Assembly (NCBI GenBank): GCA_016199065.1
Contig: JACQHK010000049.1
Location: 1 to 51,880 of the forward strand
Reading direction: 5' to 3'
Origin: Candidatus Microgenomates bacterium
GTDB taxonomy: Bacteria > Patescibacteriota > Microgenomatia > JACPZF01
DNA length: 51,880 nt
The position numbers and the translations under genes were made by a program. Below, piece after piece: positions 120-15,093 of this stretch; positions within the stretch are counted from its first letter, which is position 1, and every line of letters begins with the position of its first letter. The notes below the pieces were generated by a model. The model was given only the letters and a program-made list of their open reading frames with translations. It had not been told where the DNA came from and did no database searches.

Positions 120-626
120 ATGAAAAACTCCTTTGCCCTCAAAAAATTTCTGGGTTTATACGCTTTATTGTTAGTACTCATTCCGGCCGTAGTTTTTCTT
201 TCCGGTACTACAAATCGGGTCGGGGACTTGCGCTCTCAGGCGGCACCTCCTTTTGCTACCGTCACCTTCTGGCCGGTACAGGCCAATTTAAAATCTAATC
301 AGGAATACGATGTTGAATTAAGAGTCGACCCTACACTAAGACCGGTCAGTTTAGATACGGCAATCTCTTATGATCCGCAAATCGTGCAAATGAGTATTGA
401 AAGTCCGATTCCCGGAGATATGTATGAAGTATATCAGGCCAGACTCGTCGATAACGATAAAGGACTGGCAGGGATTTCCGGTAGGGGGGAACTTCGCGAA
501 GGAAACAAATTTGCTACACTAAAAATTATGACTCTTGCCCCAGGTGATCCGAAATTTTCCGTAAATTATGCCAACGGAAACAACGTGGAAATTAAAGTTA
601 ATTTACCCCGTTATTTGATTGAATAG
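120..626 (+). CDS. secreted or membrane-anchored hypothetical protein with a cohesin-like beta-sandwich domain
   Basis: 168-aa ORF. It has an N-terminal hydrophobic anchor or signal (LGLYALLLVLIPAVVFLSG). The remainder has a cohesin-like pattern (VELRVDP...LDTAISYDPQIVQM...FATLKIMTLAPGD). The family assignment comes from reading the sequence only. Confidence 0.45.
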   Translation: MKNSFALKKFLGLYALLLVLIPAVVFLSGTTNRVGDLRSQAAPPFATVTFWPVQANLKSNQEYDVELRVDPTLRPVSLDTAISYDPQIVQMSIESPIPGDMYEVYQARLVDNDKGLAGISGRGELREGNKFATLKIMTLAPGDPKFSVNYANGNNVEIKVNLPRYLIE

Positions 627-654
627 TTGACAAAATTTAAAAATTGCCTAAACT
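627..654 (+). promoter_or_regulatory. sigma70-type promoter driving the T-box leader and argS
   Basis: TTGACA at 627-632, a 16-nt spacer, then TAAACT at 649-654. The predicted TSS near 661 falls just 5' of the T-box Stem I base. Confidence 0.45.
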
Positions 655-660
655 AGTTAA

Positions 661-903
661 CTGACGGTAACGAAGGAAAAGTAAAAAAGAATAAAACAAA
701 TAAGTGATCAGTCGACAGTGTAAAGATTGAAGTTTTTTCTTTTTGAAACGAGCCTTCCGAGTCTTTTCCGAAGAAAGTCCCACTTCGTCCTCCGAATCGG
801 CGGACTTCGCGGGACAATTAGGAAAAAAATGAGCTTCGCCATGGCGGAGGAATAAAGGTGGCACCACGAACAACGCTTCGTCCTTTAAGGAGAAGCGTTT
901 TAT
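661..903 (+). promoter_or_regulatory. T-box riboswitch leader (tRNA-Arg sensing) upstream of argS
   Basis: Stem I spans 671-773. Its helices are GGAAAAG 675-681/CUUUUCC 763-769 and AAAAAGAA 684-691/UUCUUUUU 737-744. They enclose an 18-nt 3'-side specifier loop (745-762, GAAACGAGCCUUCCGAGU) with CGA Arg codons at 749-751 and 758-760; the second is followed by purine G761 next to the helix. An AG-bulge-like AGUGA sits at 703-707. The distal helix 708-713/725-730 carries an 11-nt loop GACAGUGUAAA. A Stem II-like hairpin lies at 777-815 and Stem III at 834-849. The T-box/antiterminator at 854-886 reads AAAGG-[UGGCACC bulge]-ACGAA-CAACGC-UUCGU-CCUUU. A mutually exclusive terminator lies at 872-903. 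Confidence 0.8.
872..903 (+). terminator. intrinsic terminator of the T-box leader
   Basis: AACGCUUC (872-879) pairs with GAAGCGUU (892-899), with an inner UCC/GGA extension, followed by UUUUAUU. The 5' arm overlaps the antiterminator 3' half. Confidence 0.75.
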
Positions 904-949
904 TGTGGAAAATAGAGATTTATTATTTATTTTGTTAAGATTAAAAAGT

Positions 950-3643
950 ATGAAGTTTAGCGTTACTGAAAAAATCTTTACCAAATGGCCTGAAGTAAAA
1001 ATCGGTATTTTAGTTTTGACCAATATCGATAATCAAACTTCTCAACCAAAATTGTTAGCCATACTAAGAAAATTAGAAGAGGAAGAAAGAAACAAATTGA
1101 CAGGATCCGATTTTAATTTAATGCCCGAAATTGCGGTATGGAAAAACGTCTATCGTGACTTTGGTTCAAATCCGAGAGATTTTCGATCGTCGGTCGAAGC
1201 ACTATTAAGAAGGGTACGAACGGGAAGCCTTTTACCCTCAATTAACAATTTAGTCGATTTATACAATTTCCTTTCCATTAAACATCACCTACCGGCTGGT
1301 GCAGAAGATTTAGATAAAGTAGTAGGAGATATTGAGTTAACCTTTGCTAAAGGTAGTGAAAAAGGAAAATATATCGGCTCTGTGCAGGAAGATACCTGTT
1401 ACGAGGGTGAAGTGATATATAAAGATGATAAGGGTTTTATTTGCCGCAGATGGAATTGGCGTGAGGCAGACAGAACCAAAATTGAAAAAGATACCAAAAA
1501 CGCTATTTTGGTTTTTGAAGCGATGCCTGCGGTTAGCGAAGAAAAATTAAAAAAAGTTTTGGCAGAGGCAAGGGAATTAATTCTCCAATTTTTGGGCGGG
1601 GAAACAAAAGAATTTATTCTGAAAACAAATCATTCGGTTATCAACAGTGAATTCCACCCGGAAAAAAAGTCACCAAATACCTTAAATAAAAAAACTATAT
1701 CACCAGTTAAATCCGCTATGGTTGCGAATCAGACCGTACCAACGCCCAATTCAACCCCAGGGGTCGGACTACAGGATACGAATGGCAAGTTACTGCAAAA
1801 AAAGATTTTGCCGCCGAAGGAATTCATCGTTTATGATTTAACTCTCGCACTCCAGTGCGCGGGAATTACTGCGTATCCTAACCTTAAAATAAAATTGGAG
1901 GATATTCACCTGGAACACCCCACAGAAGTGACTCATGGAGATTATTCGAGTAATATTGCCCTGATACTTTCCAAACAGTTAAAACAAAGTCCGTTAGTTA
2001 TTGCGGAAAAAATCGCCGGAGAACTGAAAAAATCGTTGCCGGAGTTTTTAGAGAAAGTGGAAGTTGTTAAACCGGGATTTTTGAATTTTTTTCTTTCCCC
2101 AAAATTATTGTTAAAAAAAACAGACGAAATAATTACTGCAGGAAACAATTTTGGTAAGTCCGGCATGGCCAAAGGTAAAAAAATAATCCTCGAATTTACC
2201 GATCCTAACCCTTTTAAAGAATTTCACATCGGCCACGTTTATACAAACACTGTGGGTGAATCCCTTTCGAGATTACAAGAATATATCGGTAAAACAGTCA
2301 AACGAGCCAATTATCAGGGTGATGTAGGTATGCATGTAGCAAAATCTGTTTGGGGGATGAGGAAAAAAATGGTAGAGGAAAAAATTACTTTAGATGACCT
2401 TTCACAGCAAGAAATTCATCAACGAGTTAAATTTTTAGGACAAGCCTATGCTTTGGGATCGGGTAAATTTGAAGATAGTAAAGAAGCTCAGGGGGAAATG
2501 AAAGATATTAATTATTTAGTCTATGTTTCGGCGCAAAAATTGTTAAAAGAAGAAAAAAATTGGCAGCCACAAGTCGATTACCAACAATATATCTATGGCA
2601 ATAAATTCCGGTTAGAAGAAATTGAAAAAATATATCGCGCAGGAAGATCCTGGAGTTTAGAATATTTTGAGCTCATCTATCAACGCCTTGGAACAAGATT
2701 TGATTACTATTATTTTGAAAGTGTAGTAGGAGAGTATGGCGTTAAGATCGTTAGGGAAAATCTTAACAAAGGACTGTTCGAGAAACACGACGGAGCCGTT
2801 GTTTTTAGAGGTGAAAAATTCGGTTACCATACTAGAGTGTTTATTAACTCCTTAGGTCTGCCAACTTACGAGGCAAAAGAATTAGGTCTGGCACCAACCA
2901 AATTTCAGGATTTTGCTTATACCGAATCAGTAATTATAACCGGTAATGAAATCGAGGAATATTTTAAAGTACTCATTGCTGCGCTAACCCACATCAATCC
3001 CCAACTGGGAAAAATTACCAAACATCTTCCTCACGGAATGGTACGTTTACCGGAAGGAAAAATGTCCTCGCGTACCGGAAAAGTTATTACGGGAGAAATG
3101 TTTCTTGATCATGCAAGAGACCAGGCTCTAAAAAAATTTCAGACCAAAAGCCAAACAGTAATTAGTAAAAATTTGGCAGAACAAGTAGGAATAGGAGCCA
3201 TTAAATACGCTTTTTTAAAAAGCAGCATCGGCAAGGATATAATATTTAATATGGAGGAGTCGTTAAGTTTGCAGGGGAATAGTGGTCCGTACCTGCAATA
3301 TACTCATGCTAGGGCGAAATCAGTACTAATTAAAAATGAAAAATTAAAAATGAAAAATGAAAAATTGAGTACAAATTTAGAAAAGGAGGAGATTTTATTA
3401 TTAAGATCTCTTTATAAATTTCCCGAGGTAGTTCTTTCTGCTGCCCAAAATTTTGCGCCAAATTTGCTTTGTAATTATCTTTTTGATTTGGCTCAGAAAT
3501 TTAATAGTTTTTATGACAAACTACCGATTTTAAAAGCGGAAAAAGAGAGTAGAGAAGTCAGATTAAAATTGGTAGAGGGAACTGCACAGGTATTGAAAAA
3601 CGGACTGTATCTATTGGGAATTCATGCACCGGAGAAAATGTAA
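950..3643 (+). CDS. argS: arginyl-tRNA synthetase with an N-terminal B3/B4 (PheRS-beta editing-like) domain
   Basis: The ATG at 950 is preferred because the ORF-track GTG at 905 sits in the terminator tail. The first ~215 aa read as a B3/4-like domain (NPRDFRSSVEALLRRV, LPSINNLVDLYNFLSIKHHLPAGAEDLD, RRWNWREADRT). A low-complexity linker follows. The ArgRS core starts near 1815: EFTDPNPFKEFHIGH with HIGH at 2225-2236, GKMSSRTGKV, the DALR anticodon-binding domain (FPEVVLSAAQNFAPNLLCNYLFDLAQKFNSFY), and a C-terminal ...EKM. Confidence 0.9.
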   Translation: MKFSVTEKIFTKWPEVKIGILVLTNIDNQTSQPKLLAILRKLEEEERNKLTGSDFNLMPEIAVWKNVYRDFGSNPRDFRSSVEALLRRVRTGSLLPSINNLVDLYNFLSIKHHLPAGAEDLDKVVGDIELTFAKGSEKGKYIGSVQEDTCYEGEVIYKDDKGFICRRWNWREADRTKIEKDTKNAILVFEAMPAVSEEKLKKVLAEARELILQFLGGETKEFILKTNHSVINSEFHPEKKSPNTLNKKTISPVKSAMVANQTVPTPNSTPGVGLQDTNGKLLQKKILPPKEFIVYDLTLALQCAGITAYPNLKIKLEDIHLEHPTEVTHGDYSSNIALILSKQLKQSPLVIAEKIAGELKKSLPEFLEKVEVVKPGFLNFFLSPKLLLKKTDEIITAGNNFGKSGMAKGKKIILEFTDPNPFKEFHIGHVYTNTVGESLSRLQEYIGKTVKRANYQGDVGMHVAKSVWGMRKKMVEEKITLDDLSQQEIHQRVKFLGQAYALGSGKFEDSKEAQGEMKDINYLVYVSAQKLLKEEKNWQPQVDYQQYIYGNKFRLEEIEKIYRAGRSWSLEYFELIYQRLGTRFDYYYFESVVGEYGVKIVRENLNKGLFEKHDGAVVFRGEKFGYHTRVFINSLGLPTYEAKELGLAPTKFQDFAYTESVIITGNEIEEYFKVLIAALTHINPQLGKITKHLPHGMVRLPEGKMSSRTGKVITGEMFLDHARDQALKKFQTKSQTVISKNLAEQVGIGAIKYAFLKSSIGKDIIFNMEESLSLQGNSGPYLQYTHARAKSVLIKNEKLKMKNEKLSTNLEKEEILLLRSLYKFPEVVLSAAQNFAPNLLCNYLFDLAQKFNSFYDKLPILKAEKESREVRLKLVEGTAQVLKNGLYLLGIHAPEKM

Positions 3644-3707: not shown

Positions 3708-5309
3708 TTAAGGTGCTACTTCTTTCCAAATCAAAGACGTTCTTCCTAAAACTGAGGCAAAGTTAATTAAATATTTTGGTTCATAAGTGATCCATTCAGC
3801 GGGTATGGTTTGTTCTTCCAATGTTCGGGAAGAAGAAAATATTTTTCCTCCCTGCGAAACAAAAAGCGCACCCTTAATTACTAAGGGTGTGTTGGTATCA
3901 TGATCTTTGGTACTGATTGATTCATCAACTAAATACATTCCGTCGGCTTCAAATACGTCGCTTCCGATCGACAAATTTCTTGAAACAACAAAAATAACTC
4001 CGGCATTATCTTTAATAAAAATATTATGTCTGATATTAAAATCTCCCTCGATATAGATTATTAACTTGTTATTACCGCTTACGACAATGTCTTCGCTGGT
4101 AGAAAGCGATCCTCCGGGAGGAGAAATTTTGATTTTATTAATACTTCCTACTGATGAGGCATGGGTGTTAAAAAAGGCGTTGTTAAGGCTGGTTAAGGAA
4201 TTTTGAGTATTATCGGCAGGTTTTAAATTTGAATAATAGTTATAAAATCCGGTTAGTTCTGAGTAGGTAACCTTTCCGTACGGTGGTGAATACCAAAACC
4301 AATTAACTTTACTTGCTCTTTCCGGAGCGGCATTAAATGTACCCAGTGGTCCAAAAGTGGAAAGCCCATTCGTGGTTACTAGGAAACTGGCAAAAAAATC
4401 ATCTTCGGGAATCGGATCAATAATATCGCTATTACTGTGTACATCTCCCAACTCTGTTTTAAACCAGTTTGAGCTTTCTCCTCCTCCCGGTGTCGGGGAA
4501 GGAGTGATGGTTCCACTGACAGTTGGAGTTGGTGTGGCAGATACGGTGGGAGTTAAATTCGTGGGCGTCACCGTGGGAGAAACTGTTACGGTTGTCGTTA
4601 CTGTGGTTGTAATTTTCAAAGTAGGTGTAGGTGTCAATGTCGGCGTTTTTGTGACCTCAAGCGACCTGACTGATCCGGTACAAGAAGCGGTTTGCCCATC
4701 AGCTGTAGTCACAGTAGCTGTGATTGTACAGGTTTGATTGCCGGCTTTTCCCATGGTAAAGTAACCGCCACAGGAACTGCGACTACCAGAACAATCTCCT
4801 ACTGCCTGAGTACAACTTCCGCTGGTTTTAGGCGGCAACGGGCTTACCGTTGCCGGACCATTATAAATATTTAAAGTCCAATTTACTCTCTTTTGCGGTG
4901 CAACTGAACCAGGCATGGCAAAGGAGCATTTTAAGCCAGGTGTTCCATCGCCAACGCACTCATAATCATAACTGCAGTTGCCCGGCCTATTTAGAGGATC
5001 ATAGACGTCCTGGCACTTGTTGTCCTTACAAATGGACCTGTTGGGAACACCCCCGCCTCCACCCGCATCATCACAACCGCAGAAATCACAAATTCCCGGT
5101 TTGCCTGTTCCCGGACATGAATTACTATAACCGTGAACAACCCTCTGTGCGTCACATTTAGCCGCGCAGGTGCCGCTTTTCCAATCTTCACAACAAGTAC
5201 ATGCTCCACAAACCAGCGCATTTGCTTTGGTTACTCCCATAAAAAAACTTACCGATAAAAAAACGGCTAAAAACAGCGTTAAACAAAAAACAAAATTAAG
5301 TATTTTCAT
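3708..5309 (-). CDS. secreted Cys-rich / Thr-Pro-rich protein, last gene of the pilus operon (candidate pilus-associated adhesin)
   Basis: ATG at 5309; the ORF-track start at 5321 is TTG. There is a signal peptide (KILNFVFCLTLFLAVFLSVSFFMGVTKANA). A ~200-aa region holds about 20 Cys (CGACTCC, CDFCGCDD) and a GGGGG run. A T/P linker follows (TKTPTLTPTPTL...SATPTPTVSGTITPSPTP). The ~250-aa C-terminal domain has no family I recognise. Confidence 0.6.
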   Translation of the reverse strand: MKILNFVFCLTLFLAVFLSVSFFMGVTKANALVCGACTCCEDWKSGTCAAKCDAQRVVHGYSNSCPGTGKPGICDFCGCDDAGGGGGVPNRSICKDNKCQDVYDPLNRPGNCSYDYECVGDGTPGLKCSFAMPGSVAPQKRVNWTLNIYNGPATVSPLPPKTSGSCTQAVGDCSGSRSSCGGYFTMGKAGNQTCTITATVTTADGQTASCTGSVRSLEVTKTPTLTPTPTLKITTTVTTTVTVSPTVTPTNLTPTVSATPTPTVSGTITPSPTPGGGESSNWFKTELGDVHSNSDIIDPIPEDDFFASFLVTTNGLSTFGPLGTFNAAPERASKVNWFWYSPPYGKVTYSELTGFYNYYSNLKPADNTQNSLTSLNNAFFNTHASSVGSINKIKISPPGGSLSTSEDIVVSGNNKLIIYIEGDFNIRHNIFIKDNAGVIFVVSRNLSIGSDVFEADGMYLVDESISTKDHDTNTPLVIKGALFVSQGGKIFSSSRTLEEQTIPAEWITYEPKYLINFASVLGRTSLIWKEVAP

Positions 5310-5859
5310 CGCTCCGGTCAATAATAGAAACTGTCGTTATTTCTGTACAATTTTTATCCGTACAAAGTCCGCTAATTCTGGTTTTTCCGGGAATTATGTC
5401 GGAAAAAGATTTTGTTTCTAATCTGATACTGTTATCCTGTTCCTTATATACTTCCTGTACCACTATAGAATCTGCCAGTTTAACTATGGTCTGCTTCGAA
5501 CTTTGATAAATAATCAATTTTTTTTCTGTCTCACTGGCTCCCGCAACCCAACCAATTATTTCATAAGTCATTTTTCCCTCTACTTCTTTGCTACTTATCC
5601 CGTATACATCTTCCGGAACCAATCCCCGATGATTTTGTGCTTTAATCTTTACTCTACTTTGCAGAGGAATTCCTTTGTTTGTTTGATACTGGTTAAGCTT
5701 TTTTTCAAGATTAAGAACGGCTTCGTCAACTTTCTGTTCTCGGTTTAAAGAAAGAGGGGCTAAAAGATTCATGCCTTTTATAAAATAGAGAGAAAAATAC
5801 AAGTCTATGAGAAGAAAAAGCAGGGCAGAAAAAATAATCAAATACTGTTTGTTTTTCAT
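5296..5859 (-). CDS. membrane-anchored hypothetical protein in the pilus operon
   Basis: 187-aa ORF with a single N-terminal TM (YLIIFSALLFLLIDLYFSLYFI). It overlaps the downstream gene by 14 nt and shows no recognisable motif. Confidence 0.55.
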   Translation of the reverse strand: MKNKQYLIIFSALLFLLIDLYFSLYFIKGMNLLAPLSLNREQKVDEAVLNLEKKLNQYQTNKGIPLQSRVKIKAQNHRGLVPEDVYGISSKEVEGKMTYEIIGWVAGASETEKKLIIYQSSKQTIVKLADSIVVQEVYKEQDNSIRLETKSFSDIIPGKTRISGLCTDKNCTEITTVSIIDRSDENT

Positions 5860-5977
5860 GAACTTTTAACTGAAATCATAGAAGAAATCACCCAGAGAAG
5901 AATGGGTATTAAAATCGCTGAAATTCCAATAATCGTAAGAAGGATTCTTTCTCCATCTTTCATTCAGGTTTTCCGCT

Positions 5978-6868
5978 TTATTTTTGCAACGAGTTATTTG
6001 AACCGTTAAAAATAACGTAGTCAAAGATGGGGGGTAGGACCGGATAGGATTCGAATACTTCAACCTTTCTGTTTACGTTCGAAGCTGTTCCTGTTGAGGA
6101 AATAAGTCTTCCCTGAACCGGAAAAGTATTTGCCACATCGGCCGGTTGTGCACCCAAGAGCTGAGATACGTCGTTATAAAGAATTCTTAATCTGACAGCA
6201 TAGAGAGTCGTACCTGGGGTCGGAATACTAAAAGGAGCCTGGGACAAATCTACTTGTTTCTTAAATTGAAAATTATAAGGAGCTAAATAACTACCGGAAA
6301 TATCGCTTACGGAAAGAAAATTATTATTAGACAAACGTCCGCTGTTAGGATCATAGACGCCCTTGGCCATCTTAAACACTCCGCCTTCCTGATAGATTAC
6401 TGAAACTTCCAGCGCCGGGGTAGTTGCATTATTGCTGGCTTGACCGGGATTACCCCAATAGAGAATTAGGTCTTTATCGTTAAAATTTAGAGGATCAGAA
6501 AGATTTAAACTATTATCCGCGTTGTGTCCAACGAACCAAATTTGTTGGGTATCGTCCTTGGCAACCGGTTTATTAAAAACAAAAGCCTCTCCACTTACTC
6601 CTCCCTGGGTAGTAACTGACACGTTATAACTGGCGGCATCAACTCCCGTTCCTACGGTAACCGCACCACCGGCCAATTGACCCGACAAGGCTGCTTCAAT
6701 TCCGGCTTCGGCAGCATTAAAAGCACGATTTGACAATTCTGTTTGTTGAGAAATTCTGATGTCGCGCACGGTATTCGTGGCAACGGAAAGACCGATGGTC
6801 AGAACAACAACCAAAACTAGAAGGACAATAATGACTGCTTGACCACTTTTAGCTTTAATTTTGCTCAT
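5978..6868 (-). CDS. PilX-like type IV pilus assembly / minor pilin-like protein
   Basis: The N-terminus SGQAVIIVLLVLVVVLTIGLSVATNTV...SNRAFNAAEAGIEAAL matches the PilX_N pattern (hydrophobic helix followed by A-x-x-AAEAG-hydrophobic-E). It sits in operon context with pseudopilins. Confidence 0.6.
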   Translation of the reverse strand: MSKIKAKSGQAVIIVLLVLVVVLTIGLSVATNTVRDIRISQQTELSNRAFNAAEAGIEAALSGQLAGGAVTVGTGVDAASYNVSVTTQGGVSGEAFVFNKPVAKDDTQQIWFVGHNADNSLNLSDPLNFNDKDLILYWGNPGQASNNATTPALEVSVIYQEGGVFKMAKGVYDPNSGRLSNNNFLSVSDISGSYLAPYNFQFKKQVDLSQAPFSIPTPGTTLYAVRLRILYNDVSQLLGAQPADVANTFPVQGRLISSTGTASNVNRKVEVFESYPVLPPIFDYVIFNGSNNSLQK

Positions 6869-6976
6869 AAACTTGTTCTTAATTCATTCTATATATTTTT
6901 TAAAATGCTTGTCAATAACGACTTAGTAGTTAGCTAATAGCTTTTGGCTAACCCGGCCAGCGTGACCTAAGATTAA

Positions 6977-7510
6977 TCAGTAGCTACGCAGAGAGATATT
7001 TGTTTGAAAATCAACCGTAGCGCTGCTTTCCGGTCTGGTAATCCATTTTGACTGTTTGATTTGCAGAGTAATTGAAACCAAGGGAGGTGTTCGGGTTAAA
7101 TCACAGGAAAAAGCTAATTGGGCAACATCCACTCCCACGTTTTTCTCGGCATTGGTCAAAATGGTCGAATTACTGGCAATTCTGGCATTTAAATTATTGA
7201 CTACGTCCTGAGGTAAAAGATCAAACACTATTGAATCTGTGCCATTTTTTATTGTTATACTATCACCAGCGCTACAATCCTCAACGGAGGAAGCATTCCT
7301 AATGTAGTAACTCATCACATCCAATGCATAATTACCATTCTGCTTAATTTCAGAAATAACGGTAGCTTTAGCGCCGTCTTTAATCACTGTGGCTAAAAAA
7401 TTAATACTAAAGGCAGCAATAATACCAATGATGCTTAAGGCCACAAGGGTTTCAAGAAGAGTAAAGGCATTTTTTCTGTACTGATTTGTCTTGTATGTCA
7501 AATTTGTCAT
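6977..7510 (-). CDS. prepilin-type N-terminal cleavage/methylation domain protein (minor pseudopilin)
   Basis: KNAFTLLETLVALSIIGIIAAF matches the class III signal motif with Glu at +5. Confidence 0.75.
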   Translation of the reverse strand: MTNLTYKTNQYRKNAFTLLETLVALSIIGIIAAFSINFLATVIKDGAKATVISEIKQNGNYALDVMSYYIRNASSVEDCSAGDSITIKNGTDSIVFDLLPQDVVNNLNARIASNSTILTNAEKNVGVDVAQLAFSCDLTRTPPLVSITLQIKQSKWITRPESSATVDFQTNISLRSY

Positions 7511-7526
7511 ATCTGAAAAAAGAGAA

Positions 7527-7985
7527 CTATTCCCATTTTGTTAAAAAGGTGTTCTGTTTTGAACTATGTGTTCCGGAGCTGTCCGTCCAGGAAGTGGTCA
7601 CCTCCACTAAAAGTTTTTCTGAGGCTCCATCTGGATCGGAAAAATCAGCTTCTCGTGTAAATATTACCCCGACATTAACCGCACAGCTTGGTTGTTTTAA
7701 AGTCCAAGTCGAACTGTCTCCTGTACCAATACAATAGGTTTTATTGTTATAAGTAGTAAACATTGCCGTCCAACCAAGTTTATCTCTTTCACTTCGGATA
7801 TTTTCCACAGCGTCCTGAGAGTAACGCGTTGCCAAATTTTGATTCTTCGCAAATTGGGAATTTTTTATGCTGGTTACCAAACTTTGAACCAAAGCCACGA
7901 TTACCAAGACTCCAATTCCTAAAGCTATCAAAACTTCAATCAATGATTGACCCTTACGGGCAGGTTGCACTTTCATATATTTCAC
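7527..7985 (-). CDS. prepilin-type minor pseudopilin (PilV-like)
   Basis: KGQSLIEVLIALGIGVLVIVAL prepilin motif; 152 aa; overlaps the upstream gene by 32 nt. Confidence 0.75.
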   Translation of the reverse strand: MKYMKVQPARKGQSLIEVLIALGIGVLVIVALVQSLVTSIKNSQFAKNQNLATRYSQDAVENIRSERDKLGWTAMFTTYNNKTYCIGTGDSSTWTLKQPSCAVNVGVIFTREADFSDPDGASEKLLVEVTTSWTDSSGTHSSKQNTFLTKWE

Positions 7986-8628
7986 CGCCGCTGGTTATTA
8001 TTACATAATATAAATTTCCCGCCGATTGTTTCAATTCAATCGCCAACTTACCGATATTTAAAGGAGACGATAGACCGCCAGGTAGGGCAGCTGTATAAAA
8101 AAGAGCTCCTTTACCAATTGGTTTAAAAAGCACACTGGCCGAAGAACCAATACTTGCACAACTCGAACCGTTTAATAAACGATTAATGGTAATGTTGGTG
8201 GCCAATTTTTTGTTGTAGCTTGCTGACGAAGAAGGAAAGGTATTTAAGCCGCAAATACCTTTAATGTTAAAACTGATACCGTTAACACTAAACTCGCCAA
8301 AAAATCCCGCTAATACATCGCTTGAGGTACACAGAAGAGTGTCTTTTTCTCCGGCAAAGCTGCGGTTTTGGGCATCTCTTAAATTGGATTTTAAAAAACT
8401 GGCAGCCTGTTTAACCTCTTGAGACCGATTAAAACTGATGTACGAAGGTATCGTTAACACGGCAATTAACGCACCAATAGACATTACTACCATCAGTTCA
8501 ATGAGGGTAAACCCCTCACCTGAAACCCAGAATGGAGAAGATAAGGTATTATTTTTTTTCTTATCATTATTATTACAATACAATCTAATCCACGATATAA
8601 AATGGTTCGGGGTAAAGGCAGATTTCAT
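7954..8628 (-). CDS. prepilin-type pseudopilin, start uncertain
   Basis: GEGFTLIELMVVMSIGALIAVL prepilin motif. The ATG at 8628 would give an unusually long 39-aa leader, so an internal TTG start is possible. Confidence 0.7.
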   Translation of the reverse strand: MKSAFTPNHFISWIRLYCNNNDKKKNNTLSSPFWVSGEGFTLIELMVVMSIGALIAVLTIPSYISFNRSQEVKQAASFLKSNLRDAQNRSFAGEKDTLLCTSSDVLAGFFGEFSVNGISFNIKGICGLNTFPSSSASYNKKLATNITINRLLNGSSCASIGSSASVLFKPIGKGALFYTAALPGGLSSPLNIGKLAIELKQSAGNLYYVIITSGGEIYESATCP

Positions 8629-8706
8629 AATATTTAGCTGTTAGCTCTTTGCAAATATGTATTATTTTGCTAACTAATAGCTAACGGCCAACAGCCAATA
8701 AGCTAC

Positions 8707-9147
8707 TCACGGATTAATTACAGAATAGTTACACGCCGTTCCACAACTGGCACCTCCTGCACAGTTTGCCGGAACTCCCGCACTCGAGTTTTCCAAAGAC
8801 GCACAAAGTGCATAACCGGCACCTGCGGACAGCGTGACATAATAATATTGTCTGGTTGCTAAACTGTCGGTGGGTAGTGTAGAAATATACTGTGTTGGAG
8901 AAACTAAAACATTGAGCGGGGCCGAACTGTTACTAACCACGCCGCTGGTTGCAGGATAAGTACCTTTATCTGCTTTATAAGTCTCTAGTGCACCCCTAAT
9001 CTGTTCTAAATCGGCTTTGCGTTTGGCATCTCGCGCAGTACCCCGTGCTGACAAAAAGGCAGCCGCTGTCATGGCTAATAAAAGACCAATGATACCTAGT
9101 ACAATCAAAATCTCAAGAAGCGTAAAACCGCTTTTTTGATTCTTCAT
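8707..9147 (-). CDS. type IV pilin / GspG-like pseudopilin
   Basis: MKNQKSGFTLLEILIVLGIIGLL followed by ARDAKRKADLEQIRGALETY, the GspG/pilin signature; 146 aa. Confidence 0.85.
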   Translation of the reverse strand: MKNQKSGFTLLEILIVLGIIGLLLAMTAAAFLSARGTARDAKRKADLEQIRGALETYKADKGTYPATSGVVSNSSAPLNVLVSPTQYISTLPTDSLATRQYYYVTLSAGAGYALCASLENSSAGVPANCAGGASCGTACNYSVINP

Positions 9148-9196
9148 AGTTTTTATCTTATTTGCTATTAGCTAATAGCTATTGGCCATTAGCTAG

Positions 9197-9655
9197 TTAT
9201 GGTATATGACAAGCCACTGATGTGTTGCTCGAGCAAACTGAATTTAAGACTCCTGTTCGTCCGTTAAAACATACCTCCCAACAAGTTCCTACCTCTAAAT
9301 CAGCCTGAACGACAAAAGTAGTTCCGTTAGAGATGAAATAATATTTTTTTGTGGGAATTGACAAACCCCGGGGAGGACTCCCTCCCAAATAAGAACTGAG
9401 CGGACCATTGGATGTAAAAATACTGTTGGCGGTAGTTTCTGAGTCATGAACGGCGCCTCCGGTTGTCGGATAAGAACCGTTTGTGGTGTAATATTGTTCC
9501 AAGGCAACTTTATACTGCGCCAAATCAGCTTTTCTTATAGTATCTCTTCCTTGTTTACGCGCGGTAGAAAAAGCGCCTAAAGCCAAGCTTCCCAAAATGG
9601 CCATGATGGCTATGACGATTAATAATTCAATTAAAGAAAAGCCCTTTTTATTCAT
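9197..9655 (-). CDS. type IV pilin / GspG-like pseudopilin
   Basis: ATG at 9655 gives MNKKGFSLIELLIVIAIMAIL followed by RDTIRKADLAQYKVALEQYY. The upstream ORF-track extension to 9709 falls in the TGTAAATT repeat. Confidence 0.85.
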   Translation of the reverse strand: MNKKGFSLIELLIVIAIMAILGSLALGAFSTARKQGRDTIRKADLAQYKVALEQYYTTNGSYPTTGGAVHDSETTANSIFTSNGPLSSYLGGSPPRGLSIPTKKYYFISNGTTFVVQADLEVGTCWEVCFNGRTGVLNSVCSSNTSVACHIP

Positions 9656-9695
9656 ATTTTTATTGTAAATTGTACATTTTAAATTGTAAATTAAT

Positions 9696-10256
9696 TTATT
9701 GTGCATCACAAATTACGTACCAAGTCGGATCGTAGGCATAAGACGACATAAAGCCAGTATTGCAATTAGCCTGCGAGGAAGCCAGATCAGGATCGTTTGG
9801 TCTTTCCAATTTGGTAACCATAATATAGCTTAAACTACCTGTTGGGTCACGTTGATAAAAATATGACTGGCTGCCTTTGGGATCTTTAGGAAGTGCGGCC
9901 ATATACGTAATGCTATCCTGCACAAACGGCGTTCCCCAGTCACAAATCTGCTTATTAAGATAAGTACCACAACCTTCTACTCTGCCATTTGTTGAGGTAA
10001 ACGCCGGAGGCCAAGTACCATCGCTGGGGGGATATTCACCTTTGATACTGAAATATAATTCCAGAGAAGTACGTAATTCTCGAATGTCGTTTTTACGTTT
10101 AGCGTCCCTGCCTTTGGCTAAATTACCGTAAATATTGATCATAATTAAACCGGAGAGAAGAGCCATGACGGAAACCGTTACCAGAAGTTCAATTAAAGTA
10201 AAGCCCGATCTGGCGATAGGTACGTTATGGTTTGAAACAAAGGCAAGCTTTTTCAT
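9696..10256 (-). CDS. type IV pilin / GspG-like pseudopilin
   Basis: ATG at 10256 gives MKKLAFVSNHNVPIARSGFTLIELLVTVSVMALL followed by RDAKRKNDIRELRTSLELYF. Confidence 0.8.
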   Translation of the reverse strand: MKKLAFVSNHNVPIARSGFTLIELLVTVSVMALLSGLIMINIYGNLAKGRDAKRKNDIRELRTSLELYFSIKGEYPPSDGTWPPAFTSTNGRVEGCGTYLNKQICDWGTPFVQDSITYMAALPKDPKGSQSYFYQRDPTGSLSYIMVTKLERPNDPDLASSQANCNTGFMSSYAYDPTWYVICDAQ

Positions 10257-10423
10257 CCTTAATACAGTATTAGTGTTCAGGGTAATAAATGTCAAATGGT
10301 CAACAGCTCGTAACTCTGACATGATTATTCTTCGAGTAACCCCGCTAAGCGGGGGAATTGCAAAGTTCTCGACTTCACTTCGTTACGCTCGAACAGTAAT
10401 ATTTGTGTTGGAAGCGTGAATCG

Positions 10424-11686
10424 CTACCGAGTAACTGATCTCTTTCGGATTAAGACAAGAAAAATTAACAAACAACAAAACCAGGCTGCAATATTAAAAA
10501 ATAAAAAGATTGGTAAATTAATCAATTCGCCTAAAGACTTGGCAAAAGAGGATATTTCCGCAGGATGTGTTAAAGAAATTAATTTCCAACGGGTTAAGGT
10601 GAATTTTTCTTCAGCCAAAAACACCAACAACCAGGAAAGTTCGAGAACCAAGGAGGCTAGGGAATAAGAAAAAAAGAGCGTTAAGTTGCGGAATTTTTTT
10701 TCCATCAGAACCATGCTCAAAAATGGTACAACCCACAGTAAGTAGTGAGGACTAAAAAAGCTGGCCAAAAGATAAACTGAGAGAAAAGAAATTAGAATAT
10801 TAACTGTTAAGTTAAACTTCTTGATGAGTAGAATAAAGATGCTCAAAAAAACGGAAATAAATAAAATTTCCAGGTGATTACTAACCAGCAGATCATTGAT
10901 ACTTATTGGCAAAGGGATAAAGAGTTCAAGGAGTTTCTTAAAGGCTAAAAATCCCCAAAATCCCCAAAAGGGAGGCTGATAGGTCAAGATTCTCACCAAA
11001 ACATACTCCAGATTATTAAAAAGCGGCAGAAAAACCAGGATTAAGGGAATAAAAGCGCCAAAACTAAAAATAAATATGTTAACGAATTTTTGTGCAATAT
11101 TTCCTTTTGCAGTCGCATACCATAAATAAATAACATAGGCTGGTATGGTAATGAACGGAATAATCTTTATACAGCTGGCTAATCCCCAAAATAGACCGGC
11201 GACGAAAATTTTTTTCCTGTTTAGTTTTTCTCTGAGAAATAGTACGGAAACCAGAAGAGGCAGTAAAAATAAACTTTCTAGCTGGCCCTGGTAAGCAGAC
11301 ACTACGATCGTCAGTGGGTTTAAAAAATAGAGCCCGGAGTAAAAAATTCGTTTTAAAAAAGGCAGGGAAGTATCATAGTAAAAAAGTATTAAAAAAATTC
11401 CCAAATCGGCAAAAATAAAGGGCAGTTTAGACCAAAAAGATAACCAAACTCCGGTTCGTTCTGACAAAATGCCTAATAAGTTAATTAACCAACCCCAAAC
11501 CGGCGGATTATTATAATAAACCCAATTGTCGTTATAAATACCATTCCCCTTTTTTATTTCGTAAAAAACCTCATAAACAGAATCCGTATCTAAAGGTGAC
11601 AATCCGTACCAAGCAATCAACAACCTAATACCCATTCCTACGAAGACAACTATTAAGAATATTAATAAATTAGACCTCTTCGTCAT
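10424..11686 (-). CDS. polytopic membrane protein, GT-C-fold-like putative glycosyltransferase
   Basis: 420 aa with at least 10 predicted TM helices. An acidic DTD motif (LSPLDTDSVYEVF) lies in the first loop after TM1, as in GT-C enzymes. The gene is embedded in the pilus operon. Confidence 0.45.
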   Translation of the reverse strand: MTKRSNLLIFLIVVFVGMGIRLLIAWYGLSPLDTDSVYEVFYEIKKGNGIYNDNWVYYNNPPVWGWLINLLGILSERTGVWLSFWSKLPFIFADLGIFLILFYYDTSLPFLKRIFYSGLYFLNPLTIVVSAYQGQLESLFLLPLLVSVLFLREKLNRKKIFVAGLFWGLASCIKIIPFITIPAYVIYLWYATAKGNIAQKFVNIFIFSFGAFIPLILVFLPLFNNLEYVLVRILTYQPPFWGFWGFLAFKKLLELFIPLPISINDLLVSNHLEILFISVFLSIFILLIKKFNLTVNILISFLSVYLLASFFSPHYLLWVVPFLSMVLMEKKFRNLTLFFSYSLASLVLELSWLLVFLAEEKFTLTRWKLISLTHPAEISSFAKSLGELINLPIFLFFNIAAWFCCLLIFLVLIRKRSVTR

Positions 11687-11718
11687 AAAAAGTTTATTTC
11701 TATAATAACCAAAGTTAT

Positions 11719-13305
11719 TTAAATAACTCGAAAAATTTTCACTCCGTCTCCCTGATAGATTTTTTTAAGATATTTTTTTTCATCCCATTTCCCAAAGTCT
11801 TGTGCTTCTGCTCCCTTTTTACCAAGAAACAGATACTTGATGTTATTTTTCTTTAAAAAACCTTTCCGTTCGTAATCGTTGTCTTCCAGAAAAAATCCTT
11901 TTACCTCAAACGTTTTTTGTTCCGGATTAATCGTTAAAGCAGTTCCTACTGCATGTCCAAAATATACGGTTCGGTTAATCAAGCCGGGAATTAAAGGGCT
12001 GTAAAAACCGTCAGCTAATATGATATCGCTTTCCCTACTTGTTGCTTTTAAAAAAGCCAGTCCTTTTTGATCTTCAACATAGATAAAAAAAGGTGATTCT
12101 TGTTGTTGACGGGAAAAAGCAGTCAGGTCTTGATAAACTAAATACAAATTAGTTGAGGAAACTAAGACGAAGAGAACTGGTAAAAATAATCTCCCGGCAA
12201 GAGATGTCTTTCTTTTAAAAAAGAGTACTCCTTTTTGATATATTGCCGATATCTCCGGTGCGGCAAATATCACCAGCGGAATAAAAACACCCTCTAAAAA
12301 TCTTCTTTGAAACGGTAGAGGAGAAAAAACCAATAATAAGCTACTAAGTAACCAGAAGAGATTCAGTCTGTAAAACGGGGACATACGTTCCCAAGACGCG
12401 GTGAAGATATTCTTAAAAGCCAAAATCCCGATCAGGCCAAAACCGGTCACGAATGAAAAAAGTGAAGGATTGCTTAAATTGGTTTGTTTTGTCCAGGCTT
12501 CCACGTCGGGGTATTGTTTAATGAGGAAAAATTGCCCGACGATTACCAGCAATGCCGGACCGAACGTCACCAAAAACGAGGGTAAAAAGGAAAGAGGATT
12601 ACCTTTTCTGTCTTGTAAAAATCCTAAATAGAGAAAGACCGCCAAAAAAACTGTAAAAAGCGAAAATTGGTGTTCAAAAGCTAAGAGTAATAATAAAAAT
12701 GACAAATAAAGTAAATAAATTTTCTGACGGGAACTTAAAAATTTCGACAAAACATAAAACGCGCCCAAAATTATGATTTGAAAATAAATAAAACTGGGGG
12801 TATACAAAATAGTATGGAAAACATTGGCCTCAGGTATCCATAAATCTATTGACTGAGGCGCAAAAAAATTAACTAAAAAACCCACTCCTGAGGAAAAAAG
12901 TAAGAGTAGGCAAGACCAAATTTTTCCGGTGCTATTTTTAATTTCCAACGAAAGGTATTTCCAAAAAAGAAATACGAATGTAATAGAGTAGAAAAACTTT
13001 CCTAACAAGAAAATTTGTAAATCGGAAAACGGAAGAAATTTAGCTAACATTACCAAAGGCAAATACGACGGGGCAAAAAATATTCTTGCCTGAGATTCTG
13101 AAGTAAAAAGATTTTTGGTAAGAATTTCTCCGTCTCTCATCTGCGAATAAACCATCGACAAAATTTCCCCGCTTGAAGGCAGATGTCCACCCAAGAAAAC
13201 CATGTCTGAAGGCGTGTGTAAAATCCCCCAGAATTGGGCGAAGTTGGATAACAAAAAGGCCGCTGTACTTAAAATAAAAATAGTAATCAGGTCTTTTTTG
13301 AACAT
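11719..13305 (-). CDS. polytopic membrane protein with a C-terminal soluble domain, GT-C-like (putative)
   Basis: 528 aa with many TM helices across the first ~390 aa, then a ~130-aa hydrophilic C-terminal domain. No diagnostic motif was seen. Confidence 0.35.
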   Translation of the reverse strand: MFKKDLITIFILSTAAFLLSNFAQFWGILHTPSDMVFLGGHLPSSGEILSMVYSQMRDGEILTKNLFTSESQARIFFAPSYLPLVMLAKFLPFSDLQIFLLGKFFYSITFVFLFWKYLSLEIKNSTGKIWSCLLLLFSSGVGFLVNFFAPQSIDLWIPEANVFHTILYTPSFIYFQIIILGAFYVLSKFLSSRQKIYLLYLSFLLLLLAFEHQFSLFTVFLAVFLYLGFLQDRKGNPLSFLPSFLVTFGPALLVIVGQFFLIKQYPDVEAWTKQTNLSNPSLFSFVTGFGLIGILAFKNIFTASWERMSPFYRLNLFWLLSSLLLVFSPLPFQRRFLEGVFIPLVIFAAPEISAIYQKGVLFFKRKTSLAGRLFLPVLFVLVSSTNLYLVYQDLTAFSRQQQESPFFIYVEDQKGLAFLKATSRESDIILADGFYSPLIPGLINRTVYFGHAVGTALTINPEQKTFEVKGFFLEDNDYERKGFLKKNNIKYLFLGKKGAEAQDFGKWDEKKYLKKIYQGDGVKIFRVI

Positions 13306-14971: not shown

Positions 14972-15044
14972 ACGGGCGATTATATCACTCTTATTTTACC
15001 CCCGGGGTGTAATATTTCACACCCCGGTAGTGTATTTAAACTCC

Positions 15045-15072: not shown

Positions 15073-15093
15073 GAATTTCTTTAGCTTAAGCTG

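What the first reader, a model, noticed from the sequence alone, without database searches (positions are those of the whole stretch)
950..3643. ArgRS fused to an N-terminal B3/B4 (PheRS editing-site-like) domain
The first ~215 residues (nt ~950-1600) read as a B3/B4 domain. A ~70-aa low-complexity linker follows, then a complete arginyl-tRNA synthetase (nt ~1815-3643). Established knowledge: B3/B4 is the post-transfer editing site of the PheRS beta subunit, and canonical ArgRS has no editing domain. As far as I recall, a free-standing B3/B4 protein (CtdA) has been described as a canavanyl-tRNA-Arg deacylase. Inference: this fusion would place a tRNA-Arg proofreading or tRNA-binding module in cis on ArgRS. 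That could protect against arginine analogues such as canavanine. I am not aware of this architecture being characterised.
Basis: partly seen in the sequence, partly recalled or inferred. Interest (0 to 1): 0.7.

Follow-up and report, generated by a model that had tools for sequence, protein, structure and literature searches.

The report
ArgRS fused to CtdA-like editing domain
This gene from a Patescibacteria-type bacterium joins a complete arginyl-tRNA synthetase to a domain closely resembling CtdA, the enzyme that strips the toxic arginine mimic canavanine off tRNA-Arg, so a synthetase thought to lack proofreading appears to have gained a built-in proofreader.

Summary
Nucleotides 950-3643 (+) form one uninterrupted 897-codon ORF with three parts:
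- a B3/4 domain (aa 1-232);
- a disordered, poorly conserved linker (aa ~233-284);
- a complete ArgRS (aa 285-897), with the Add1 domain, HIGH, KMSSR and DALR.

The N-domain is not PheRS-like in detail. Its best sequence and structure matches are the two solved canavanyl-tRNA-Arg deacylases (CtdA). Foldseek gives TM 0.84 to CtdA against about 0.6 to PheRS-beta. All six CtdA pocket residues are kept or conservatively replaced.

The fusion is not an artefact. At least 57 divergent proteins share the architecture (≤54% full-length identity among the 33 complete ones aligned), mostly from Microgenomates MAGs and annotated only as "arginine--tRNA ligase". An independent strain fragment reads through the junction.

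Syntenic relatives show a split form (ctdA-like gene, 3 nt, argS) and a form with no module. An Arg-specifier T-box leader precedes both the window's gene and the split pair.

No paper found describes this architecture.

Most likely function: a tethered post-transfer editing module that clears canavanyl-like mischarged tRNA-Arg. Activity and substrate are untested. Related modules fused to LysRS carry the same pocket residues.

The parts
627..654 (+). Sigma-70-like promoter candidate (TTGACA, 16 nt spacer, TAAACT) directly upstream of the leader
   Evidence: 10 of 12 matches. This is a consensus match only, and 8.9 such sites are expected by chance in the scanned region.
658..888 (+). T-box leader. 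Stem I has an S-turn (AGUA...GAA) and a specifier loop. The probable specifier is CGA (Arg) at 749-751, followed by the purine G752. The T-box core AAAGGUGGCACCACG lies at 854-868.
   Evidence: RF00230 scores 81 bits, E 4e-18, over the full model 1-219, which is below the Rfam gathering score of 93; the Stem I fold places GAAACGAG on the 3' side of the loop. The same GAAACGAG appears in the syntenic L001 leader. The specifier assignment is my reading of the cmscan alignment.
872..905 (+). Intrinsic terminator of the T-box: hairpin AACGCUUC-G-UCCU-UUA-AGGA-GAAGCGUU followed by UUUAUU. It overlaps the 3' arm of the antiterminator.
   Evidence: MFE -29.4 kcal/mol, z = -3.7, and 0 of 200 shuffles fold as well. 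One search gives the alternative antiterminator pairing.
950..3643 (+). Single ORF of 897 codons plus a stop: the CtdA-like-ArgRS fusion protein
   Evidence: The start at ATG 950 fits homologue N-termini and lies after the terminator.
950..1645 (+). CtdA-like B3/4 domain (aa 1-232). Pocket residues: N106 (nt 1265-1267), G117 (1298-1300), E119 (1304-1306), C165 (1442-1444), E172 (1463-1465), V188 (1511-1513).
   Evidence: Pfam B3_4 E 2e-26. PDB sequence hits to CtdA 9f7e and 9mkl. AF2 pLDDT 97. Foldseek TM 0.84 to CtdA. Pocket mapping.
1646..1801 (+). Flexible linker (aa 233-284), rich in S, N, P, K and T. It is not conserved in sequence or length among the fusions.
   Evidence: AF2 pLDDT is below 50 for aa 239-284. 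In the 34-sequence alignment, linkers run 22-60 aa and are 17% Lys. Estimates across all 57 fusions reach about 316 aa. Seven of 54 residues differ in the strain fragment P0310, against 0 of 73 in the domain.
1802..3640 (+). Complete arginyl-tRNA synthetase (aa 285-897): Add1 N-domain aa 313-382, Rossmann catalytic domain with HIGH at aa 426-429 (nt 2225-2236) and KMSSR at aa 704-708 (nt 3059-3073), and the DALR anticodon-binding domain aa 782-897
   Evidence: The closest solved structure is P. horikoshii ArgRS 2zue (E 1.8e-66; Foldseek E 1.9e-36).

Best explanation
The gene encodes the cell's arginyl-tRNA synthetase with a CtdA-type aminoacyl-tRNA deacylase tethered to its N-terminus by a disordered linker of about 50 residues.

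Proposed mechanism:
- The ArgRS body charges tRNA-Arg. Like most ArgRSs, it presumably cannot fully reject close arginine analogues.
- The appended domain is held at high local concentration beside the acceptor end. It hydrolyses the ester bond of mischarged tRNA-Arg and spares Arg-tRNA-Arg. The most likely substrate is canavanyl-tRNA-Arg, or another long basic arginine analogue.
- This is tethered post-transfer editing. It is the fused counterpart of the free-standing CtdA, and of the two-gene ctdA-like/argS operon found in a sister lineage.
- Expression is driven by an Arg-specifier T-box leader, so it rises when uncharged tRNA-Arg accumulates.

Shown here: the architecture, the fold, the pocket conservation, the recurrent fusion or adjacency to argS, and the leader.

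Inferred: that the domain is catalytically active, its substrate, that it spares Arg-tRNA-Arg, and that this is the organism's only ArgRS.
For: 1. **Closest relatives of the N-domain.** They are the experimentally validated CtdAs. By sequence: 9f7e E 2.9e-28 and 9mkl E 5.3e-24. By structure: model pLDDT 97, Foldseek TM 0.84 over the full length, against about 0.6 for PheRS-beta.
2. **Pocket.** All six residues defined for S. enterica CtdA (PMC12449066) are present. N105, G116, E118 and C166 are identical. Q173 is Glu, as that paper reports for the C. perfringens CtdA; Hauth et al. (PMC10018355) showed that enzyme prevents canavanyl-tRNA-Arg accumulation. I189 is Val.
3. **Pocket across fusions.** Across 57 ArgRS fusions the counts are N 57/57, G 56/57, E 56/57, C 46 plus T 9, E/Q 57/57 and V/I 56/57. 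In the alignment of 34 fusions, invariant columns are denser in the N-domain (21 in about 230 positions) than in the ArgRS body (30 in about 613).
4. **Genomic linkage.** The 8 closest GTDB loci all have argS directly downstream: 5 fused and 3 adjacent. The syntenic relative L001 has the ctdA-like gene, TAA, 3 nt, then argS, behind the same Arg T-box.
5. **ArgRS body is intact.** TIGR00456 scores above its cut-off, and HIGH and KMSSR are present.
6. **Linker.** It is disordered and variable in length and sequence, as expected of a tether.
[quoted passage not shown] A fusion is therefore not self-defeating.
Against: - No activity data exist for any member of this clade.
- Identity to the validated CtdAs is only 24-27%. 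CtdA-like modules fused to TyrRS (29-33%) or LysRS (38-42%) are closer to the window's domain than the validated enzymes are.
- LysRS-class-II-fused modules carry essentially the same six pocket residues. Those residues therefore do not by themselves specify a canavanyl or tRNA-Arg substrate.
- Canavanine is a legume metabolite. Exposure of these uncultured Patescibacteria, known only from metagenomes, is not evident.
- A close syntenic relative (L083) lacks the module entirely, so it is dispensable in some lineages.
- Whether the genome has a second ArgRS could not be checked.
Confidence: 0.6

Rival explanations
1. The mechanism is the same (a tethered aa-tRNA deacylase), but the physiological substrate is not canavanine. 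It could be another non-cognate basic amino acid on tRNA-Arg, such as ornithine, homoarginine, citrulline or lysine. It could also be a broad 'long basic side chain' specificity shared with the LysRS-fused modules.
For: LysRS2-fused modules from Gribaldobacteria, Parachlamydiales and Dependentiae/Babeliales have the same pocket residues (N, G, E/D/Q/G, C, E, V/M) as the ArgRS-fused ones. The authors of PMC12449066 themselves raise activity against other amino acids to explain CtdA in organisms not exposed to canavanine. The organisms that carry the fusion are uncultured MAG lineages, some from groundwater, with no evident link to legumes.
Against: The only substrate demonstrated for this pocket type is canavanyl-tRNA-Arg, in four CtdA-1 enzymes (P. 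canavaninivorans, R. leguminosarum, C. perfringens, S. enterica). ArgRS is not known to mischarge ornithine or lysine appreciably (my own knowledge, not tested here).
Confidence: 0.22
2. The N-domain is catalytically silent. It acts as an extra tRNA-binding or recruitment module, together with the Lys-rich linker, that raises the affinity of ArgRS for tRNA-Arg in a reduced-genome organism.
For: Linkers across the fusions are Lys-rich (17% K). Appended domains that only bind tRNA are common in synthetases, and some fused editing-like domains are inactive, for example the yeast ProRS N-terminal INS-like domain (my own knowledge). The same module is fused to several different synthetases.
Against: The aminoacyl pocket, including the Asn that is essential in CtdA (an N105A mutant is inactive), is almost invariant across 57 fusions. 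That would not be expected of a purely RNA-binding role. The TyrRS-fused modules have a different pocket (H, T, Q, P/N at four of the six sites), which suggests the pocket is tuned to a side chain.
Confidence: 0.1
3. The domain deliberately hydrolyses correctly charged Arg-tRNA-Arg under some conditions. It would be a regulatory brake on charging that feeds back through the T-box.
For: CtdA shows weak Arg-tRNA-Arg hydrolysis at high concentration. Tethering raises local concentration. The gene is under an Arg T-box.
Against: Such a cycle would burn ATP. [quoted passage not shown] Most fusions lack a T-box directly upstream.
Confidence: 0.05
4. The fusion is an artefact: a sequencing or assembly error removed the stop codon between an upstream ctdA-like gene and argS.
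For: The closest relative has exactly that two-gene arrangement with a 3-nt gap.
Against: The window has a linker of about 50 codons that the split form lacks, so a lost stop cannot produce it. Fifty-seven divergent proteins from independent assemblies share the architecture. An independent strain fragment reads through the junction.
Confidence: 0.01

Closest known systems
CtdA, canavanyl-tRNA-Arg deacylase (CtdA-1 clade; PDB 9f7e and 9mkl; PMC10018355, PMC12449066, PMC12268091)
   Same: It has the same B3/4 fold, including the CtdA-specific helical insert (TM 0.84 over the whole domain). It has the same six pocket residues, with Q173 as Glu and I189 as Val. It has a functional link to ArgRS and tRNA-Arg.
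   Different: CtdA is described as a free-standing single-domain enzyme. It is often under guanidine riboswitches or next to canavanine catabolism genes. Here the domain is covalently fused to ArgRS, shares only 24-27% identity with the validated enzymes, sits behind an Arg T-box, and occurs in Patescibacteria, a group not listed among the main CtdA-bearing phyla in PMC12449066.
PheRS beta-subunit B3/B4 editing domain
   Same: It belongs to the same Pfam family (PF03483) and has the same core fold (Foldseek E 1e-10 to 1e-6). The catalytic-site Asn is shared. It is a cis-editing domain within a synthetase.
   Different: TM is only about 0.6 and identity 12-16%. The PheRS editing residues are not conserved in the CtdA family: His265 corresponds to Gly and Gly318 to Gln or Glu. 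The window has G117 and E172 at those positions. CtdA cannot replace PheRS editing. The partner is a class I monomeric ArgRS rather than the class II PheRS heterotetramer, and the attachment is a flexible tether rather than rigid integration.
Editing modules that exist both free-standing and fused: YbaK/ProXp versus the ProRS INS domain, AlaX versus the AlaRS editing domain, and ThrRS-ed versus the ThrRS N2 domain (general aaRS knowledge; see the discussion and PMC12268091)
   Same: The evolutionary pattern is the same. One deacylase fold occurs as a free-standing trans-editing factor, as an operon partner and as a synthetase-fused domain.
   Different: Until now the CtdA/B3-B4 case had only the PheRS cis form and the free CtdA. 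No ArgRS, a synthetase regarded as lacking editing, has been described with such a domain.
T-box leaders controlling aminoacyl-tRNA synthetase genes (Rfam RF00230)
   Same: It has the full-length architecture: Stem I, a specifier loop, the T-box sequence and alternative terminator and antiterminator structures, all upstream of an aaRS gene.
   Different: It scores below the Rfam gathering threshold (81 against 93 bits). It occurs in a Patescibacteria-type genome. It controls a fused or operonic editing-plus-synthetase unit.

Membership tests
Arginyl-tRNA synthetase (class Ia; NCBIfam TIGR00456 argS) | Whole-protein score above the curated equivalog cut-off | tested here: met
   393.5 bits against a cut-off of 261.65
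Arginyl-tRNA synthetase (class Ia; NCBIfam TIGR00456 argS) | Add1 N-terminal domain, Rossmann catalytic domain and DALR anticodon-binding domain, in that order | tested here: met
   PF03485 at aa 313-382, PF00750 at 507-767 (with PF00133-like 408-495), PF05746 at 782-897. Foldseek TM (target-normalised) is 0.75-0.85 to solved ArgRSs.
Arginyl-tRNA synthetase (class Ia; NCBIfam TIGR00456 argS) | Class I signature motifs: HIGH and the ArgRS form of KMSKS | tested here: met
   HIGH at aa 426-429 and GKMSSRTG at aa 703-710
Arginyl-tRNA synthetase (class Ia; NCBIfam TIGR00456 argS) | tRNA-dependent arginine activation and charging of tRNA-Arg | not testable with these tools
   Needs an enzyme assay
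CtdA (canavanyl-tRNA-Arg deacylase, CtdA-1) | B3/B4 fold with the CtdA-type helical insert, matching solved CtdA over its full length | tested here: met
   AF2 pLDDT 97. 9f7e and 9mkl are the top Foldseek hits, with TM 0.84 and 228-233 aligned columns.
CtdA (canavanyl-tRNA-Arg deacylase, CtdA-1) | Pocket residues N105, G116, E118, C166, Q173(E) and I189 of S. enterica CtdA, including the CtdA-1-specific Cys | tested here: met
   N106, G117, E119, C165, E172 and V188. Residue roles are from PMC12449066. According to that paper, Glu at the Q173 position also occurs in the C. perfringens CtdA.
CtdA (canavanyl-tRNA-Arg deacylase, CtdA-1) | Free-standing single-domain protein | tested here: not met
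   It is fused to ArgRS in one ORF. This is the point of difference.
CtdA (canavanyl-tRNA-Arg deacylase, CtdA-1) | Selective hydrolysis of canavanyl-tRNA-Arg and protection from canavanine toxicity | not testable with these tools
   Needs deacylation and growth assays
PheRS beta B3/B4 editing domain | Match to Pfam B3_4 and the B3/B4 core fold | tested here: met
   PF03483 E 2e-26. PheRS-beta chains match at TM about 0.6.
PheRS beta B3/B4 editing domain | PheRS editing-site residues (E. coli His265 and Gly318 among others) and placement within PheRS beta (B1, B5, B6-8 domains) | tested here: not met
   The positions equivalent to His265 and Gly318 are G117 and E172, as in CtdA. No other PheRS-beta domains were found by Pfam.
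T-box leader (RF00230) | Score at or above the Rfam gathering threshold | tested here: not met
   81 bits against 93. Nevertheless E is 4e-18 over the full model 1-219.
T-box leader (RF00230) | Specifier loop with a codon matching the regulated gene, the conserved T-box sequence, and mutually exclusive terminator and antiterminator | tested here: met
   GAA-A-CGA-G in the specifier loop (CGA is an Arg codon). AAAGGUGGCACCACG is present. The terminator hairpin has z = -3.7. The same specifier is present in L001. The codon register is my reading of the alignment.

The most novel reading that the evidence does not exclude
CtdA-like B3/4 modules may be a portable post-transfer editing domain. It would have been recruited repeatedly, by fusion or operon linkage, to synthetases classically regarded as lacking hydrolytic editing domains. 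The partners seen here are ArgRS, LysRS of both class I and class II, and TyrRS (once together with a YbaK-like domain). The hosts are reduced-genome symbiont lineages: Patescibacteria, DPANN archaea, Dependentiae/Babeliales and Parachlamydiales. The window's protein would then be one member of an undescribed family of editing-competent ArgRS and LysRS enzymes that guard against amino-acid analogues scavenged from hosts or the environment.
Probability: 0.45. Interest if true: 0.85.

Novelty: new variant of a known kind. Interest (0 to 1): 0.66.

Why it matters
ArgRS is a textbook example of a synthetase without an editing domain. CtdA was described in 2023-2025 strictly as a stand-alone trans-editing factor, and how it recognises tRNA is unknown.

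A natural ArgRS-CtdA fusion matters for four reasons:
- It would be the first ArgRS with a cis or tethered proofreading module.
- It is independent "Rosetta-stone" evidence that this CtdA-like clade works on the ArgRS/tRNA-Arg pathway, in lineages far from legumes.
- It offers a ready-made construct for structural work on how CtdA engages tRNA-Arg.
- Together with the LysRS and TyrRS fusions seen in passing, it suggests that organisms dependent on scavenged amino acids invest in analogue proofreading.

All of this can be tested directly with published assays.

Tried and rejected
- **Rfam at gathering thresholds** on the whole window found nothing. The T-box appeared only in an E-value search of nt 560-1000.
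- **No tRNA genes** are in the window, so the tRNA-Arg partner could not be examined.
- **T-box as a general feature of the fusions: rejected.** Only L004 and L007 have T-box hits, and these lie 3-4.6 kb upstream of the fusion gene, so they serve other genes. L003, L005, L006 and L008-L010 have none at E ≤ 1e-3. The syntenic L083 has none either.
- **"Pocket residues co-vary with the partner synthetase": withdrawn in part.** I first concluded this. It holds for the TyrRS-fused representatives and for the two class I LysRS representatives. LysRS2-fused modules from GTDB have the same six residues as the ArgRS-fused ones. The notebook entry overstates this point.
- **Single origin of the fusion: not supported.** Crude NJ trees of the N-domains and of the ArgRS cores scatter the fused forms among unfused ones, in about 4 to 10 clades. 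These trees are too rough to count events.
- **A second argS** in the same genome could not be tested.
- **Literature searches** for any description of ArgRS or LysRS with a B3/4 domain, or of T-boxes in Patescibacteria, returned nothing relevant. One search failed on syntax.
Full report
**1. What is in the sequence**

Nucleotides 905-3643 on the + strand form one ORF. The ATG at 950 gives an 897-aa protein whose first residues (MKFSV...) match the N-termini of homologues, so 950 is the likely start.

Pfam finds four domains in order:
- B3_4 (PF03483) at aa 64-213, E 2e-26;
- Arg_tRNA_synt_N at aa 313-382;
- the ArgRS catalytic domain, extending to aa 767;
- DALR_1 at aa 782-897.

NCBIfam's argS equivalog model TIGR00456 scores 393.5 bits against a cut-off of 261.65. 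The class I motifs are present: HIGH at aa 426-429 and KMSSR at aa 704-708. The closest solved ArgRS is that of Pyrococcus horikoshii, 2zue.

An AlphaFold2 model of the full protein, built on an alignment of 34 fusions, has mean pLDDT 86.7. Its only long low-confidence stretch is aa 239-284. The anatomy is therefore a folded N-domain (aa 1-232), a disordered linker of about 50 residues, and a complete ArgRS (aa 285-897).

**2. What the N-domain is**

- **By sequence.** Against all PDB chains, the best matches are the two solved canavanyl-tRNA-Arg deacylases: CtdA of Pseudomonas canavaninivorans (9f7e, E 2.9e-28) and of Salmonella enterica (9mkl, E 5.3e-24). Nothing else is significant.
- **By structure.** A model of aa 1-230 on a 107-sequence alignment has pLDDT 97 and pTM 0.92. 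Foldseek against the PDB ranks 9f7e and 9mkl first, with E about 1e-21, TM 0.84 and 228-233 aligned columns. PheRS-beta chains follow at TM about 0.6 and 12-16% identity.
- **By pocket.** Maldonado et al. (PMC12449066) define the aminoacyl pocket of S. enterica CtdA as N105, G116, E118, C166, Q173 and I189. They show that N105A, G116H/W, C166G and Q173G inactivate the enzyme. In the window these positions are N106, G117, E119, C165, E172 and V188. According to that paper, Glu at the Q173 position also occurs in the C. perfringens CtdA. Hauth et al. showed that enzyme prevents canavanyl-tRNA-Arg accumulation (PMC10018355).

The domain is thus a CtdA-1-type module. It is not a copy of the PheRS editing site, whose key residues His265 and Gly318 correspond to Gly and Glu here.

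**3. The fusion is real and recurrent**

- A search with the full protein returned about 36 full-length proteins (843-1123 aa, 37-53% identical) carrying PF03483 together with the three ArgRS domains. They include NCBI/UniRef entries named simply "arginine--tRNA ligase" from Candidatus Gottesmanbacteria, and one on a 1.03-Mb contig.
- An exhaustive HMMER search of 1.84 billion cluster representatives with the N-domain gave 3293 hits at E ≤ 1e-3. Ten of the 11 best representatives are ArgRS fusions, some truncated by a contig end.
- In total, 57 fetched proteins have both domains in the same order.
- Linkers differ in sequence and length. They run 22-60 aa in the aligned set, and up to about 300 aa where a second B3_4 copy is inserted. 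They are Lys-rich (17% K).
- A 128-aa fragment from an independent assembly of a near-identical strain (P0310) reads in frame across aa 155-282. It has no change in 73 domain residues and 7 changes in 54 linker residues.
- Across the fusions the pocket is nearly invariant: N 57/57, G 56/57, E 56/57, C 46 plus T 9, E/Q 57/57 and V/I 56/57.
- Invariant columns are denser in the N-domain than in the ArgRS body.

An assembly artefact is excluded.

**4. Genomic context and evolution**

The window is ordinary chromosome from a low-GC (35-44%) Patescibacteria-type genome. It carries type IV pilus genes, gyrB, an H+-pyrophosphatase, gyrA and glycosyltransferases. Named homologues come from Gottesman-, Curtiss-, Woese-, Shapiro- and Levyibacteria.

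Syntenic relatives show three states of the same locus:
- **L001.** The neighbouring gene is 68% identical and the N-domain 69% identical. It has a free 234-aa ctdA-like gene, TAA, 3 nt, then argS.
- **L083.** It has the same synteny but argS alone, with no B3/4 remnant.
- **The window.** It has the fusion, with a linker that the split form lacks.

In a scan of GTDB species representatives, more than 562 loci encode a relative of the domain. The eight closest (48-58% identity) all have argS immediately downstream. It is fused in L003, L004, L006, L007 and L010, and adjacent in L005, L008 and L009. Most of the more distant ones show no argS within 6 kb. The exceptions are L024, a Nanoarchaeia locus with argS directly upstream, and L081.

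Crude NJ trees scatter the fused forms among unfused ones. This suggests repeated fusion, fission or loss, but these trees cannot count events.

**5. The leader**

A sigma-70-like promoter match lies at 627-654. It is followed by a full-length match to the T-box model at 658-888, with 81 bits and E 4e-18. That is below Rfam's gathering score of 93, so it was missed in the default scan.

- Stem I folds with a specifier loop whose 3' side reads GAA-A-CGA-G. In the register of the Rfam consensus, the specifier is CGA, an arginine codon (nt 749-751). The register is my inference.
- The T-box sequence AAAGGUGGCACCACG (854-868) is followed by a strong terminator hairpin (872-899) and a U-tract. It has z = -3.7, and none of 200 shuffles fold as well.
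- L001 has the same leader and the same GAAACGAG in front of its ctdA-like/argS pair.
- The other fusions examined lack a T-box directly upstream.

Where it is present, the editing module and ArgRS are co-induced by uncharged tRNA-Arg.

**6. Most likely mechanism**

Steps shown here:
- a complete ArgRS;
- a CtdA-type domain with an intact pocket;
- a flexible tether;
- recurrent fusion or operon linkage with argS.

Steps inferred:
- the domain hydrolyses mischarged tRNA-Arg, with canavanyl-tRNA-Arg as the best-supported candidate because it is the only substrate proven for this pocket type;
- tethering raises its local concentration at the site where mischarged product is released;
- Arg-tRNA-Arg is spared. 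For free CtdA this has been shown: it has strong intrinsic preference for Can, and ArgRS and EF-Tu protect Arg-tRNA-Arg from it.

In solved ArgRS-tRNA complexes the Add1 domain holds the tRNA D-loop, far from the acceptor end (established knowledge from 1f7u and 2zue). A disordered linker of 50 or more residues is long enough to let the N-domain reach the CCA end.

**7. Caveats and rivals**

- Identity to the validated CtdAs is only 24-27%.
- The same module family (29-54% identical to the window's domain) is fused to other partners: class II LysRS at either end, class I LysRS, TyrRS (once with a YbaK-like domain as well), a GatA-like amidase and GNAT acetyltransferases.
- The TyrRS-fused modules have a different pocket (H, T, Q, P/N). 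The LysRS2-fused modules share the ArgRS-type pocket. The six residues therefore do not prove a canavanyl or tRNA-Arg substrate. A broader or different "basic analogue" specificity is a live alternative (confidence 0.22).
- A non-catalytic tRNA-binding role (0.10) is disfavoured by the pocket conservation.
- A regulatory Arg-tRNA-Arg hydrolase (0.05) and an artefact (0.01) are unlikely.

**8. Comparison with what is known, and novelty**

The three CtdA papers treat CtdA as a stand-alone, single-domain enzyme. None mentions a fusion or an argS neighbourhood. Full-text searches for ArgRS or LysRS with a B3/4 domain found nothing.

The components are known, and the proteins already sit in public databases under a generic name. 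The architecture, an ArgRS carrying a CtdA-type editing module, appears undescribed. I rate it a new variant of a known kind, with interest of about 0.66.

The wider pattern of CtdA-like modules attached to ArgRS, LysRS and TyrRS in reduced-genome lineages is the most novel reading the data allow. I give it a probability of about 0.45.

Noticed in passing
window 627-905 (+); L001 7533-7692: An Arg-specifier (CGA) T-box leader with a promoter-like site and an intrinsic terminator precedes the fusion gene. It scores below Rfam's gathering threshold (81 and 65 bits against 93), so default annotation would miss it. No paper on T-boxes in Patescibacteria was found.
   Followed up: partly
L001 8001-10430; L083 3412-5911; window 120-3643: Three syntenic relatives show three states of the same locus. 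They are fused (the window), split with a 3-nt gap (L001) and module absent (L083). L001's ArgRS is only 51% identical to the window's, although its N-domain is 69% identical and its neighbouring gene 68% identical. This hints at uneven rates or replacement of the ArgRS part.
   Followed up: partly
P0260, P0297, P0270, P0326, P0275; L028, L033, L036, L067, L074, L076 (B3_4 match at about 6001-6690 in most of these loci): CtdA-like modules are fused to class II LysRS, at either the C- or the N-terminus. The hosts are Gribaldobacteria, Parachlamydiales, Dependentiae/Babeliales and others. The six pocket residues are the same as in the ArgRS fusions.
   Followed up: partly
P0290, P0265 (class I LysRS); L053 (Woesearchaeota; lysS adjacent); L024 (Nanoarchaeia; argS ends 5989, B3_4 starts 6001): The module is also fused or adjacent to class I LysRS, and in DPANN archaea it sits directly downstream of argS. 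Linkage to both structural classes of LysRS argues that the association follows the amino acid or tRNA rather than the enzyme fold.
   Followed up: partly
P0332, P0359, P0367, P0346: There are TyrRS proteins with an N-terminal CtdA-like module. P0346 additionally has a YbaK-type tRNA_edit domain in front. Their pocket differs from the ArgRS-fused one (E to H/D, C to T, V to P/N).
   Followed up: partly
P0246, P0295, P0351; L050 and L059 at about 3917-4504: The module is fused to a GatA-like amidase (a truncated protein, 54% identical to the window's N-domain) and to GNAT acetyltransferases. A GatA-like gene lies about 1.5 kb upstream of the module in two Acidobacteriota loci.
   Followed up: no
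P0132 (1123 aa), P0250 (1124 aa), P0241 (1154 aa): P0132 and P0250 are ArgRS fusions with two tandem B3_4 domains. P0241 has only one B3_4 match but an unusually long spacer (estimated at about 260 residues between the N-domain and the ArgRS part).
   Followed up: no
alignment of ArgRS cores: A few fused ArgRSs have a degenerate first histidine in the HIGH motif (MLGH in 3, GIGH in 2). This raises the question of whether all fused ArgRS bodies are catalytically standard.
   Followed up: no
window aa 534-560 of the ORF (nt about 2549-2629): The window's ArgRS has an insertion of about 27 residues (EEKNWQPQVDYQQYIYGNKFRLEEIEK) in the catalytic-domain helical region, relative to L001's ArgRS. The consensus of the other fusions also has residues here.
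   Followed up: no
window 3708-19887 (-): There is a large type IV pilus and pseudopilin cluster: N_methyl-type pilins, PilC-like T2SSF, and two T2SSE ATPases. It includes a 537-aa Cys-rich and Thr/Pro-rich secreted protein (3708-5321). The cluster is syntenic in L001 and L083.
   Followed up: no
window 21000-27700 (+): A membrane H+-pyrophosphatase gene (23028-25106) sits between gyrB and gyrA.
   Followed up: no
window 41928-46640 (-): A 1570-aa protein combines several glycosyltransferase domains (two GT2, GT4 and GT1).
   Followed up: no
L003, L005, L008, L011, L033 record titles: Several GTDB loci have Patescibacteria-like gene content (B3_4-ArgRS fusions, low GC) but carry record titles such as 'uncultured Gammaproteobacteria', 'Bdellovibrionales' or 'Eubacteriales'. 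These taxonomic labels look unreliable.
   Followed up: no
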